A stretch of DNA of 63,197 bases, counting the filler, from Octopus bimaculoides (taxonomy: Eukaryota), in the NCBI RefSeq assembly GCF_001194135.2. It is 4 parts of 4 records of this genome, joined end to end, with 100 filler letters (N's around TTAATTAATTAA, not from the genome) between each part and the next. Parts side by side here need not be neighbours in the genome. Positions count along the whole stretch, not along the records: positions 1 to 25,016 come from NC_068989.1; positions 25,117 to 53,193 come from NC_068987.1; positions 53,294 to 56,921 come from NC_068982.1; positions 57,022 to 63,197 come from NC_069006.1. The stretch is one strand, 5' to 3'. Both the position numbers and the translations under genes were made by a program. Of this stretch, positions 14,737-60,707 are shown in pieces. Under the pieces are notes generated by a model. The model made no database searches. It worked only from the letters and a program-made list of their open reading frames with translations, and was not told the origin of the DNA. Within the stretch, counting starts at the first letter, position 1. Each line of letters begins with the position of its first letter.

Positions 14737-14780
14737 CCAGTAGACCGTGGTTTCTGGGTCTTCACCTTCATCGGTACGGG
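14737..14780 (-). ncRNA. Type I hammerhead ribozyme motif, unit 1
   Basis: CCCGUA-CCGAUGA-AGGUGAAGACCCA-GAAAC-CACG-GUC-UACUGG. Stem I is 5/6 paired, the GUC site is present, and the core has U4->C. Confidence 0.75.
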
Positions 14781-15070
14781 ACAACTGCCTGCTAGAGATG
14801 GCAGTCAATCGTCCTTACTCACAGGGGAAAACAGCCACTGATTCCGTAGCGAGCAAAGTAGCTAGTTCTGAAATCTCTAAACGAGATATAAGTAGTAACA
14901 ATACTAAACGGTAACGTTTTTTTTTCGCCATTATAACATGGCTGTTCTGTAAAGAACTATGTTAATGTATTTAAACCCCAAGAAAACATTTTTTCCAGCT
15001 GGTCAATGACACTCAACCTGTGCCCGATATATTGTAAGGGGGAAAATCACTCCCCTTCAGCTTGGCAAGA

Positions 15071-15115
15071 CCAGTAGGCCATGGTTTCTTGGTCTTTACC
15101 CTTCATCGGTACTGG
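15071..15115 (-). ncRNA. Type I hammerhead ribozyme motif, unit 2
   Basis: CCAGUA-CCGAUGA-AGGGUAAAGACCAA-GAAAC-CAUG-GCC-UACUGG. Stem I is 6/6 with an upper helix GCAGG/CUUGC. The cleavage triplet is mutated to GCC. Confidence 0.75.
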
Positions 15116-15432
15116 ACACCTGCTTGCTAGAGATGGCAGTCAATCATCCCTACTCACAATATATAAACCGAGAAGCGGTAGATAGCCGCTGATCACGTAG
15201 CGAGCAAAGTAGCTAGTTCTGAAATCTTTAAACGAGATATAAGTAGTAACAATATTAGACGGGAACGTTTTTTTTTCTTTTTTTGCCATTATAAGATGGC
15301 TGTTGTGTAAATAACTATGTTAGTGTATTTTAACCCCAAGAAAACATGTTTTCCAGATGGTCAATGACACACAACCTGTGCCTGATATATCGTGAGTAAG
15401 GGAGCAAAACACTCCCCTCCAGCTTGGCAAGA

Positions 15433-15477
15433 CCAGTAGACCATGGTTTCTGGGTCTTTACCGTTAATCGGTACTGG
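15433..15477 (-). ncRNA. Type I hammerhead ribozyme motif, unit 3
   Basis: CCAGUA-CCGAUUA-ACGGUAAAGACCCA-GAAAC-CAUG-GUC-UACUGG. Stem I is 6/6, the CAUG loop is palindromic, and the core has G8->U. Confidence 0.75.
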
Positions 15478-15761
15478 ACACCTGTCTGATAGAGATGGCA
15501 GTCAATCGACCCTACGGCAGACAGCCGTTGATTCAGTAACGAGCAAAATAGCTAGCTCTAAAACCTCTAAACGAGATATAAGTAGTAACAATACAAGACG
15601 GTAACATTTTTACGCCACTATAACATGGATGTTCTGTAAAGAACCATGTTACTATATTTTAACCACAGGAAAACGTCTTTTCCAGCTGTTCAATGACACA
15701 CAACCTGTGCCCGATATATTGTGAGTAAGGGAGTGAACAAATCCCCTCCAGCTTGACAATA

Positions 15762-15806
15762 CCATTAGACCATAGTTTCTAGATATTTATCCTTCATCGA
15801 TACTGG
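15762..15806 (-). ncRNA. Type I hammerhead ribozyme motif, unit 4
   Basis: CCAGUA-UCGAUGA-A-GGAU-AAAU-AUCU-A-GAAAC-UAUG-GUC-UAAUGG. Stem II shows compensatory changes relative to units 1-3. Confidence 0.7.
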
Positions 15807-59339: not shown

Positions 59340-59960
59340 TAAAATCCAAACAATAACGTATCTTTTTATTCTTATTACATTATGGCAGATTCGAACGCGA
59401 ATATTTGATCTCTGTTGTTTTTCGCCACCGGAGAATGGCTCCCCCCTTTGGGCAATATATGTTCTTATCACACATAAATCACTGGTGTAAGGGGACTTTG
59501 AGACACAGTGATGTTTCGATTTATCAGTCGAAGCTACCCTCCACCCTCACTGATGAATTTCACAAGAGTAAGAGCTCATGCTCATAGAAATCAGCAAACC
59601 AATTATTTGCTGATGCCAAAGAGACGATAATTCATGGGGCACACGAAGAACAGCCAGAATCCAAACAATAACCTATTCATTCTTAGTAAGTTGTAACAGA
59701 TTTAAACATATCTGATCTTGTTTTTCGTCATCGGAGAAGACCTCCCCCATTGAACAGACGTGTTTTCATAATTCACGCGGTATTGCGTGTCTCCTCAGTG
59801 AAAGCCATCTCGGACCGACGATTCTAACAAGAGAACAGGTTCTTATTTATAGAAACCAGTAAACAAATTATTTACTGATGCTTGTTAATGTCTGCCAAAC
59901 AGATAATAATTCACGGAGCGCACGAGACTAGCCAGAAACCAAACAATAGACTATGTAAGT
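59340..59960. repeat. Diverged ~280-315-bp tandem repeat (about 2.1 units)
   Basis: CCAAACAATA at 59346, 59661 and 59939; TTGTTTTTCG.CA.CGGAGAA...CTCCCCC occurs twice; TAGAAA.CAG.AAAC.AATTATTT.CTGATG occurs twice. Confidence 0.8.
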
Positions 59961-60147
59961 AATTCGTCGTACTCTACACGCTGTTTTAATTTTAGTTGAT
60001 AACTTGTAATATCAAGTATAGGTTGTATTTTTGTGGAACTGGTTATCCCGATCTGATAGTTTAACGACAGAATTCTTTGAGTTGCTCTCAGAATAACGAA
60101 CATGTATTTTGGTTCGGTAGAAGTGTGTGTGAAGTTCCAAATACGTA

Positions 60148-60355
60148 ATATTGGTTTCAAATTTTGGCACAAGGCCAGAAATTTTGGGGGAGGAGGTAAG
60201 TCGACGCCAGTGTTCAGTTGGTACTTATTTCATCGACCCCGAAAGGATGAAAGGCAAAATCGACCTCGGCGCAATTTGAACTCAGAGCGTAAGGGTGGAC
60301 GAAATGTCGCTAAGCATTTTGCCCGGCATGCTAACCATTCTGTCAGCTAACTACC
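60148..60355 (-). mobile_element. SINE family B (copy 1 of tandem pair)
   Basis: TTTCAAATTTTGGCACAAGGCCAG...ATCGACCCCGAAAGGATGAAAGGCAAA...TTTGAACTCAG. Confidence 0.9.
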
Positions 60356-60378
60356 TTTGATAATAATAATAATAATAA

Positions 60379-60598
60379 TGGTTTCAAATTTTGGCACAAG
60401 GCCAGCAATTTCAGGGAGGGAGTTAAGTCGATTACATCGACCTCAGTGCTCAGCCTGTACTTATTACTCATTTTATCGACCGCAACAGGATGAAAGGTAA
60501 AATCAACCTCGACGGAACTTGAACCCAAAACGTGACGAAAGGCGAAGTGCTGCTCAACATTTTGCCCCACGTGCTAACGATTCTGCCATTTCGTTGTC
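60379..60598 (-). mobile_element. SINE family B (copy 2 of tandem pair)
   Basis: Same motifs as copy 1; separated from it by (TAA)n at 60360-60378. Confidence 0.9.
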
Positions 60599-60646
60599 TT
60601 CCAAGTACGTAATATTAATTCATTGTTAACAAAAATGTTCTAACCG

Positions 60647-60707
60647 AACAATTATTCTGTGCTGATGAAGCGAAACAACCCGGAAATCGCGATACACAGA
60701 TATTGTT
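60647..60707 (+). ncRNA. Type I hammerhead ribozyme, intact catalytic core
   Basis: AACAAU-UAU-UCUGUG-CUGAUGA-A-GCG-AAACAA-CCC-G-GAAA-U-CGCG-A-UA|CACAGA-U-AUUGUU has two perfect 6-bp stem I helices around a UAU/U internal loop, a palindromic CGCG loop III, and an AUA site with predicted cleavage after 60694. Confidence 0.85.

What the first reader, a model, noticed from the sequence alone, without database searches (positions are those of the whole stretch)
14737..60707. Shared atypical hammerhead architecture: an A.R juxtaposition closes stem II in seven motifs from at least two families
Seen in sequence: every motif has core, then A, a 3-4-bp stem II, a purine, then GAAA. The stem II regions are A-GGGU/AAAG/ACCC-A (array consensus), A-GGAU/AAAU/AUCU-A (unit 4, covarying), A-GAGU/UAU/ACAC-A (52.7 kb), A-GCG/AAACAA/CCC-G (60.67 kb) and A-GCGU/AAGG/AUGC-A (35.87 kb, which has GAGA for GAAA). 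Established knowledge: canonical HHRs have a G10.1-C11.1 pair directly after A9. Inference: recurrence across otherwise unrelated flanks, with stem covariation, suggests a selected variant fold (A.A or A.G pair at 10.1/11.1) that standard descriptors would miss. The array, 52.7-kb and 60.65-kb motifs also share a U(G/A)U internal loop or bulge in stem I that could dock loop II.
Basis: partly seen in the sequence, partly recalled or inferred. Interest (0 to 1): 0.85.

Follow-up and report, generated by a model that had tools for sequence, protein, structure and literature searches.

The report
Hammerhead ribozymes with A·A-closed stem II
A repeated element of about 340 bases in this likely animal genome carries hammerhead-ribozyme motifs in which two facing adenines sit where a G–C pair normally closes stem II, and the same swap recurs in unrelated phage and bacterial motifs, so it is likely a working, overlooked variant of a known self-cutting RNA, although cutting is untested.

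Summary
All seven motifs exist and all have A facing a purine at the base of helix II. They are fewer independent cases than claimed. The four array copies and the 52.7-kb motif belong to one ~340-bp repeat family that fits a non-LTR retrozyme. The 60.67-kb motif is a second family, and 35.87 kb is a probable relic. All five copies of the main family are damaged.

The decay explanation fails. In a pile-up of 393–515 contigs per run from three species labels, the majority restores the damaged positions (90–96%) but lists no change at either A. Descriptor scans found A·A-closed hammerheads with full helices I and III in about ten unrelated phage, bacterial and metagenomic lineages. A·G was never found in a structured hit, so the variant is A·A, not A·R. 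A G–C pair is kept one step out.

Most likely this is a dimer-cleaving type I hammerhead in which A·A stacks on A9·G12 as a non-canonical pair; two bulged As is the rival. U·U at this position and an extra nucleotide after A9 are published. Ten searches found no description of A·A. Verdict: new variant of a known kind; activity untested.

The parts
14631..15814 (-). Tandem array of a ~340-bp repeat, about 3.5 units, core-to-core 335, 362 and 329 bp, 42% GC; units 80-83% alike; fits a non-LTR retrozyme
14737..14780 (-). Unit 1 type I hammerhead; C at position 4; 1-nt deletion in helix II; predicted cut after 14743
15071..15115 (-). Unit 2 hammerhead; A10.1 = 15102, A11.1 = 15089; copy-specific U16.1->C (15078) and 11.2 C->A (15090); predicted cut after 15077
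15433..15477 (-). Unit 3 hammerhead; intact helices I and III; G8->U and a C.C in helix II
15762..15806 (-). Unit 4 hammerhead at the 5' edge of the array; C3->U; helix II G.U, G-C, A-U
52501..52938 (+). Diverged member of the same repeat family, about 1.3 units (period 341), starting at a different phase from the array
52698..52743 (+). Hammerhead of the 52.5-kb copy; intact core, 13 nt between A9 and G12, 10-nt palindrome at helix III
60648..60706 (+). Second-family type I hammerhead; intact core, 6-bp helix I, UAU/U internal loop, 5-bp distal helix, 8-nt palindrome, A.G at base of helix II, one C.C; lies 12 nt from an assembly gap, family state untested
35860..35906 (+). Probable decayed relic; A.A plus 3 pairs plus 6-nt loop and a 10-nt palindrome, but A14->G and no helix I next to the core; no flank match to the others

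Best explanation
The array and the 52.5-kb copy are decayed members of one multi-copy ~340-bp tandem repeat whose majority sequence carries a type I hammerhead motif with A facing A at the base of helix II, and this repeat is likely a non-autonomous non-LTR retrozyme whose A.A is predicted to act as a stacked non-canonical pair in a working ribozyme. Shown: the anatomy (6-bp helix I with a 3x1 internal loop; A.A plus three pairs plus a 6-nt loop ending in A; palindromic helix III), the family-wide state of both As, and recurrence of A.A outside this genome. Inferred: multimeric transcripts fold so that two neighbouring motifs pair their palindromes into a long helix III and cut after GUC; monomers of about 330-360 nt circularise and are copied back as more-than-unit tandems by the reverse transcriptase of an autonomous element. 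Inferred for the fold: A.A fills the first of the four helix II slots and extends the sheared A9.G12 pair by a second purine-purine pair, which keeps helix II at the length needed for loop 2 to dock on the helix I internal loop, while the conserved G-C moves one step out. The docking would offset the weaker junction, probably at a lower rate than a canonical hammerhead. The copies in this window are probably dead.
For: Pile-up on unit 2 at 80% likeness: 477, 393 and 515 contigs laid from runs of three species labels. The majority restores U16.1 (95.6, 91.0, 94.3% of depth) and C11.2 (90.1, 91.2, 90.8%). Neither 15102 nor 15089 is among the 40 best-supported of 197 difference rows, and the only indel listed is at 15032. 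Go-back joints of 332-340 in DNA show tandem copies elsewhere. Monomers fold better than shuffles (z -2.98 and -2.55). Size, GC, tandem layout and helix sizes match the published description. External scans, with helices I and III not in the pattern: 5 of 63 unique metagenome matches were structured (null mean 0.67, max 4), 4 of 14 viral (0.27, max 2) and 5 of 62 in prokaryote genomes (0.40, max 3). One phage contig has two copies flanking a gene, each with a 6-bp helix I and an 8-9-bp helix III. On 18 aligned motifs the first slot is unpaired in 18 of 18, and the two outer pairs swap G-C/C-G (10 two-sided cells, 0 of 500 shuffles; the external patterns forced G/C content there, and one row, 52.7 kb, is out of register). 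Papers on a sheared AA or CA+ pair beside sheared GA pairs exist (titles only).
Against: No cleavage or structure data. The pile-up hides 157 rows, so a minority with other letters at either A (up to roughly a third, judged from the weakest rows shown) is not excluded. Runs X14 and X15 share the same joints and are not independent. The family looks old: 281 of 477 contigs are under 90% alike and C>T/G>A changes dominate. The one RNA run gave 41 reads in 12.9 million records, none 95% alike or better, on both strands, 90% running on into unlike sequence, several with a G5 change, and no pile of ends; published retrozymes are abundant circles. The family also has C at position 4, which lowers activity in vitro. 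One phage relative has C.A in the slot (L068), and G-C always follows, which also fits two bulged bases. In phages A.A is rare: 2 of 126 matches, against 64 with one extra base then G-C. The circular fold was only about 1.4-1.7 SD below a first-order Markov null.
Confidence: 0.55

Rival explanations
1. Same element, different fold: G10.1-C11.1 is retained, the 5' A is the known extra nucleotide between A9 and G10.1, and the only new feature is a second extra A bulged before G12.
For: The pair after the As is G-C in three window families (unit 2 by its pile-up majority, 60.67, 35.87). An extra base after A9 is published for Penelope-type and viroid hammerheads. The 2014 descriptor allows extra N10 and extra N11, and 1 of its 56 aligned examples has an A before GAAA. 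C.A occurs in one phage relative. One phage A.A family shares its helix I with the family that has a single extra U.
Against: With A at the 3' slot, the 5' slot was A in 4 of 15 unique matches, C in 1 of 11, U in 0 of 14 and G in 0 of 8, although U is the commonest single extra base in the same collection. That partner preference fits a pair. Counting A.A as a pair gives the 4-slot helix II beside a 6-bp helix I that canonical animal hammerheads have. The scan for A.A without a following G-C gave 0 of 106 but covered 14 of 64 parts and has little power.
Confidence: 0.27
2. A.A is a tolerated, slow variant fixed in the founder of each family by descent, not a selected fold; it damps cleavage or is nearly neutral in dimers.
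For: Five of seven window motifs descend from one family. Mispairs at 10.1-11.1 are reported to lower activity, with U.U the best tolerated (citing earlier mutagenesis). Natural hammerheads with weak or absent helix II persist with rates of 0.01-0.001 per minute. RNA is at trace level in the one run laid.
Against: About ten unrelated lineages use A.A, while no structured A.G was seen among 45, 6 and 18 unique matches in three overlapping scans. Random tolerance would give a mixture. Multi-copy phage and bacterial examples keep A.A while loops and helices diverge.
Confidence: 0.15
3. Copy-specific decay of a canonical G-C pair, or chance matches.
For: Every family copy in the window is damaged. 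A.G at 60.67 kb is a single copy and may be decay from A.A. 35.87 kb lacks helix I.
Against: The pile-up majority repairs other damaged sites but not these two. 6 descriptor matches against 0.13 expected. External recurrence.
Confidence: 0.03

Closest known systems
Metazoan non-LTR retrozymes with canonical type I hammerheads (coral, mussel, axolotl; PMC7229834)
   Same: Tandem repeats of 150-450 bp, GC under 45%, one type I hammerhead per unit, short palindromic helix III, self-paired monomer; mussel repeats are 350-390 bp
   Different: A.A at the base of helix II and C at position 4; abundant circular RNA not seen here (41 reads in one run); the paper's figures and supplement could not be read, so its sequences were not compared
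Axolotl HHR_Amex2 and natural U10.1.U11.1 hammerheads (PMC7229834, PMC3088659)
   Same: A natural non-Watson-Crick juxtaposition at the base of helix II, family-wide in about 60,000 axolotl motifs
   Different: Pyrimidine pair there, purine pair here
Minimal hammerheads of Penelope-like elements and CChMVd(+) with an extra nucleotide between A9 and G10.1 (PMC4209133, PMC1636495)
   Same: An extra base, often A, after A9, followed by G-C; palindromic helix III; dimer cleavage
   Different: Those have C directly before GAAA (55 of 56 aligned examples), long helix II and a short helix I without a clear loop 1; here a second A precedes GAAA, helix II is short, helix I is 6 bp with an internal loop, and no reverse-transcriptase gene was looked for or seen beside the array
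Phage and bacterial type I hammerheads with long helix III flanking genes (PMC3088659)
   Same: The external A.A motifs share this layout, including two copies around one gene (L017)
   Different: That study rejected hits mispaired at 10.1-11.1; Rfam gave 0 matches on L017, L013 and L003

Membership tests
Hammerhead ribozyme, type I | Core C3-U4-G5-A6-N7-G8-A9 / G12-A13-A14-A15.1 / U16.1-H17 | tested here: met
   Intact at 52.7 and 60.67 kb; array majority intact except C at 4, a known natural variant; not met at 35.87 kb (A14->G)
Hammerhead ribozyme, type I | Three helices around the core, helix I open | tested here: met
   6-bp helix I in units 2, 3 and 60.67 kb; absent at 35.87 kb
Hammerhead ribozyme, type I | G10.1-C11.1 directly after A9 (usual, not universal) | tested here: not met
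   0 of 7; A.A or A.G instead, G-C one step out. Papers call the pair quasi-conserved or present in most and report U.U exceptions
Hammerhead ribozyme, type I | Match to an Rfam hammerhead model | tested here: not met
   No hammerhead match at E up to 10 in 14620-15850 or 60560-60718; none among the 150 rows shown of 308 for the whole window
Hammerhead ribozyme, type I | Loop 1-loop 2 tertiary docking | tested here: inconclusive
   3x1 internal loop present and loop 2 ends in A in 7 of 7; contact itself not testable
Hammerhead ribozyme, type I | Site-specific self-cleavage | not testable with these tools
   No pile of RNA ends at 41 reads
Non-LTR retrozyme | Tandem repeat of 150-450 bp, GC under 45%, one type I hammerhead per unit | tested here: met
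   329-362 bp, 42% GC; tandem joints in other copies
Non-LTR retrozyme | Many dispersed copies | tested here: met
   Two loci in the window; 393-515 contigs laid per run; not a copy number
Non-LTR retrozyme | Highly self-paired monomer | tested here: inconclusive
   z -2.98 and -2.55 linear; about 61% paired but weaker against a Markov null when circular
Non-LTR retrozyme | Abundant circular or linear monomer RNA | tested here: inconclusive
   41 reads from diverged copies in one cDNA run, 6% of it read; library may lose small circles
Non-LTR retrozyme | No LTR, primer-binding site or coding capacity; long target duplications when present | tested here: inconclusive
   No stop-free frame of 100 aa in the array; LTR features and target duplications were not searched
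Penelope-like element pLTR hammerhead | Long helix II, short helix I, linked RT/GIY-YIG gene | tested here: not met
   Helix sizes differ; no long frame beside the array; no profile search for RT was run

The most novel reading that the evidence does not exclude
A.A at 10.1/11.1 is a repeatedly evolved, fully active alternative junction of the hammerhead: an extended sheared purine stack that does without G10.1 (recalled as a metal ligand), used by animal retrozymes, phages and bacteria, and forming an undescribed subclass that Rfam models and mispair filters have been discarding.
Probability: 0.3. Interest if true: 0.68.

Novelty: new variant of a known kind. Interest (0 to 1): 0.46.

Why it matters
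The G10.1–C11.1 pair is treated as the most conserved pair of the hammerhead after A15.1–U16.1, and published searches discarded hits mispaired there. A natural A·A that recurs in unrelated lineages gives a ready set of wild-type RNAs to ask what that pair really does: stacking, helix length or metal binding. Some are monomer-competent by anatomy. It also means hammerhead counts in animal repeats and phages are underestimates, and it adds a retrozyme-like family shared by at least three species labels. It does not point to a new ribozyme class or new biology of the element.

Tried and rejected
No whole genome is held, so no genome-wide count. No RNA holder was listed by the run search; this is no evidence either way. 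Other core-like matches at 46377, 59550 and 59798 did not give three helices and were dropped. The whole-window Rfam scan was swamped by microsatellite matches to miRNA models, and the repeat finder by microsatellites and N runs. No external locus fetched up to one search matched the window repeats by blastn beyond short low-complexity hits, so the external motifs are not relatives of the window family.

The claim that 14 nt between A9 and G12 is required was rejected: most external patterns fixed that length, and the variable-length scan gave structured hits of 11, 13 and 18 nt (6 of 64 parts). The scan for A·A without a following G–C was uninformative.

I recalled that the amphibian satellite-2 hammerhead might already have A·A here and could not check it. 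Four papers were not held, one had no sequence text, one supplement was too large, and the alignments of another lie beyond the pages held. The 2020 paper's wording, which singles out the U·U family as having the weaker helix, suggests the newt-like family has no such mismatch. A pairwise-mutagenesis paper gave no passage on this pair.

Full report
The window is 33% GC, rich in microsatellites, gapped, and holds a Tc1/mariner fragment. No whole genome is held.

Observation. In each, A follows A9 and a purine precedes G12: A in six, G in one. A descriptor written after the fact finds 6 of the 7 against 0.13 expected, maximum 2, in 200 shuffles. The details are weaker than reported. No array copy has the quoted consensus: each has a damaged core or helix. 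The stems at 52.7 and 60.67 kb each hold a mismatch. The motif at 35.87 kb has A14→G and 0 of 6 pairs in helix I. The 52.7-kb motif lies in a 68–71% identical copy of the array's repeat, so five of the seven are one family. Under my intact-motif descriptor with a strict core, only 60.67 kb passes.

The element. The array (14631–15814, minus strand) has about 3.5 units of 329–362 bp at 42% GC, one hammerhead per unit. The 52.5-kb copy has about 1.3 units and starts at another phase. Monomers cut at the predicted sites fold better than shuffles (z −2.98 and −2.55), less clearly as circles against a Markov null. This matches the description of animal non-LTR retrozymes in PMC7229834 (passages). 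It also matches the canonical animal type I hammerhead in PMC4209133: 6-bp helix I, 4-bp helix II, short palindromic helix III that works as a dimer (main text parts 1–2 of 4). Read on that frame, A·A takes the first of four helix II slots, followed by three pairs and a 6-nt loop ending in A. The loop is 5 nt at 52.7 kb and in the deleted unit 1.

Is it decay? I laid four runs on unit 2 at 80% likeness: 477, 393 and 515 contigs from three species labels, and 41 RNA reads. Unit 2 has two built-in controls. The pile restores U16.1 in 95.6, 91.0 and 94.3% of depth and C11.2 in 90.1, 91.2 and 90.8%. Neither A (15102, 15089) nor the C at position 4 is among the 40 rows shown of 197, and no deletion is listed there. 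The weakest rows shown without RNA support reach about 35% in one run, so I infer that both As are the majority state; minority variants may be hidden.

The same call counts against present activity. Most contigs are under 90% alike (281 of 477), transitions dominate, and two of the runs share joints and are not independent. The RNA reads are few, from other copies, on both strands, mostly running into unrelated sequence, with no pile of ends. The 60.67 and 35.87-kb families could not be tested this way.

Is it general? I scanned three collections with patterns that fix only the core and helix II, then asked in scripts whether helices I (4 bp or more) and III (2 further pairs or more) form, with permuted flanks as null. 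Metagenomes gave 5 of 63 unique matches (null 0.67, max 4). Viral contigs gave 4 of 14 and 4 of 30 in two overlapping scans (null 0.27 and 0.24, max 2) and 3 of 111 in a variable-length scan of 6 of 64 parts (null 0.39, max 3; one of the three is weak). Prokaryote genomes gave 5 of 62 (null 0.40, max 3), in Thiolinea and two Cysteiniphilum species. One phage contig has two copies around a gene, each with a 6-bp helix I and an 8–9-bp helix III. Some metagenome hits have the palindromic animal-type helix III. After merging relatives I count about ten lineages; none of those compared matched the window repeat.

Which pair? By base, structured hits were 5 of 18 A·A against 0 of 45 A·G in metagenomes, and 4 of 8 against 0 of 6 and 4 of 12 against 0 of 18 in viral contigs. 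With A fixed at the 3' slot, the 5' base was A in 4 of 15, C in 1 of 11, U in 0 of 14 and G in 0 of 8. So the variant is A·A; the single A·G may be decay. It is uncommon in phages: 2 of 126 matches in one scan, against 64 with one extra base followed by G–C. On 18 aligned motifs the first slot is never a standard pair and the outer pairs swap orientation, with the caveats that the patterns forced G/C there and one row is out of register.

Mechanism. I recall, not from a call, that helix II stacks on a sheared A9·G12 pair and that a metal ion binds the A9 phosphate and G10.1. An A after A9 facing an A before G12 has the geometry to continue that sheared stack. Work on AA and CA+ pairs beside sheared GA pairs exists (titles in the reference list of PMC5393185). 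I favour this reading (0.55) because the partner preference looks like pairing and it keeps helix II at four slots. The rival (0.27) is that G10.1–C11.1 is simply retained with a bulged base on each side. G–C follows the As in all three window families, and an extra base after A9 is well known (PMC4209133; PMC1636495, passage). A tolerated slow variant (0.15) is also open: natural hammerheads with little helix II persist at low rates (PMC13725137, passages).

What is known. U·U at this position is reported in nature (PMC3088659, passages; PMC7229834). The 2011 study rejected hits mispaired at 10.1–11.1. The 2014 descriptor allows an extra N10 and N11, and 1 of 56 aligned examples has an A before GAAA; by row order it would be an A·A case, but the columns were not kept (supplement file 2, parts 1–2 of 3 and search passages). 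The text layer of its Figure S1 shows C–G at this position in all nine canonical animal examples. Rfam found no hammerhead in the two window regions scanned or in three external loci.

Ten searches found no description of A·A closing helix II or of this family. I also read passages of PMC6765202, PMC2837043, PMC6155905, PMC7936874, PMC9901934, PMC4263765, PMC2114352 and two preprints (10.1101/721605, 10.1101/2021.04.23.441226) without finding one. The library lacks most older and subscription papers, figures are not held, and the key supplements were unreadable. My recollection that amphibian satellite-2 hammerheads may have A·A is unverified. Prior description therefore remains possible, perhaps one chance in three.

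Verdict. Interest 0.46.

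Noticed in passing
window 15108 and the same position in all four array units: The array family has C at core position 4 instead of U, apparently as the majority state; one phage A.A hammerhead (L013) has the same double departure.
   Followed up: partly
L017 (whole locus), L233, L183, L068: Phage family with A.A (once C.A) hammerheads placed just upstream of ribosome-binding sites and flanking small genes.
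   Followed up: partly
L550, L561, L564, L566, L573, L187, L530: Several pattern matches per genome in two Cysteiniphilum species (four structured as A.A type I hammerheads) and one in a Thiolinea assembly; gene context not studied.
   Followed up: no
L019-L140: A large phage group of type I hammerheads with one extra U after A9, a 4-bp helix II, a 6-bp helix I and long helix III (64 of 126 matches).
   Followed up: no
L192, L193, L162, L172, L167, L169, L164, L201: Metagenome contigs with A.A motifs and palindromic helix III, probably eukaryotic repeats; L192 and L193 lie on opposite strands of one contig, and L193 holds a second, damaged copy lacking the 5' A.
   Followed up: partly
window 51591-52094 minus: Tc1/mariner transposase fragment (Sleeping Beauty match, E 4.6e-9).
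   Followed up: partly
window 60222-60345, 60465-60588, 58275-58396, 55695-55796, 47305-47428, 19043-19144: Dispersed SINE-like repeat, 70-80% alike; one copy lies just upstream of the 60.67-kb hammerhead but the others are not followed by one.
   Followed up: no
window 53294-53750: 55-bp tandem repeat, 8.3 copies, with internal inverted symmetry, bounded by assembly gaps; could be an assembly or adapter artefact.
   Followed up: no
window 59343-59954: Two diverged copies of a roughly 300-bp unit with core-like matches at 59550 and 59798 that do not form a hammerhead.
   Followed up: partly
window 12540-12894: GC-rich 182-bp direct duplication, 94% alike, inside stop-free frames of 133 and 189 codons.
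   Followed up: no
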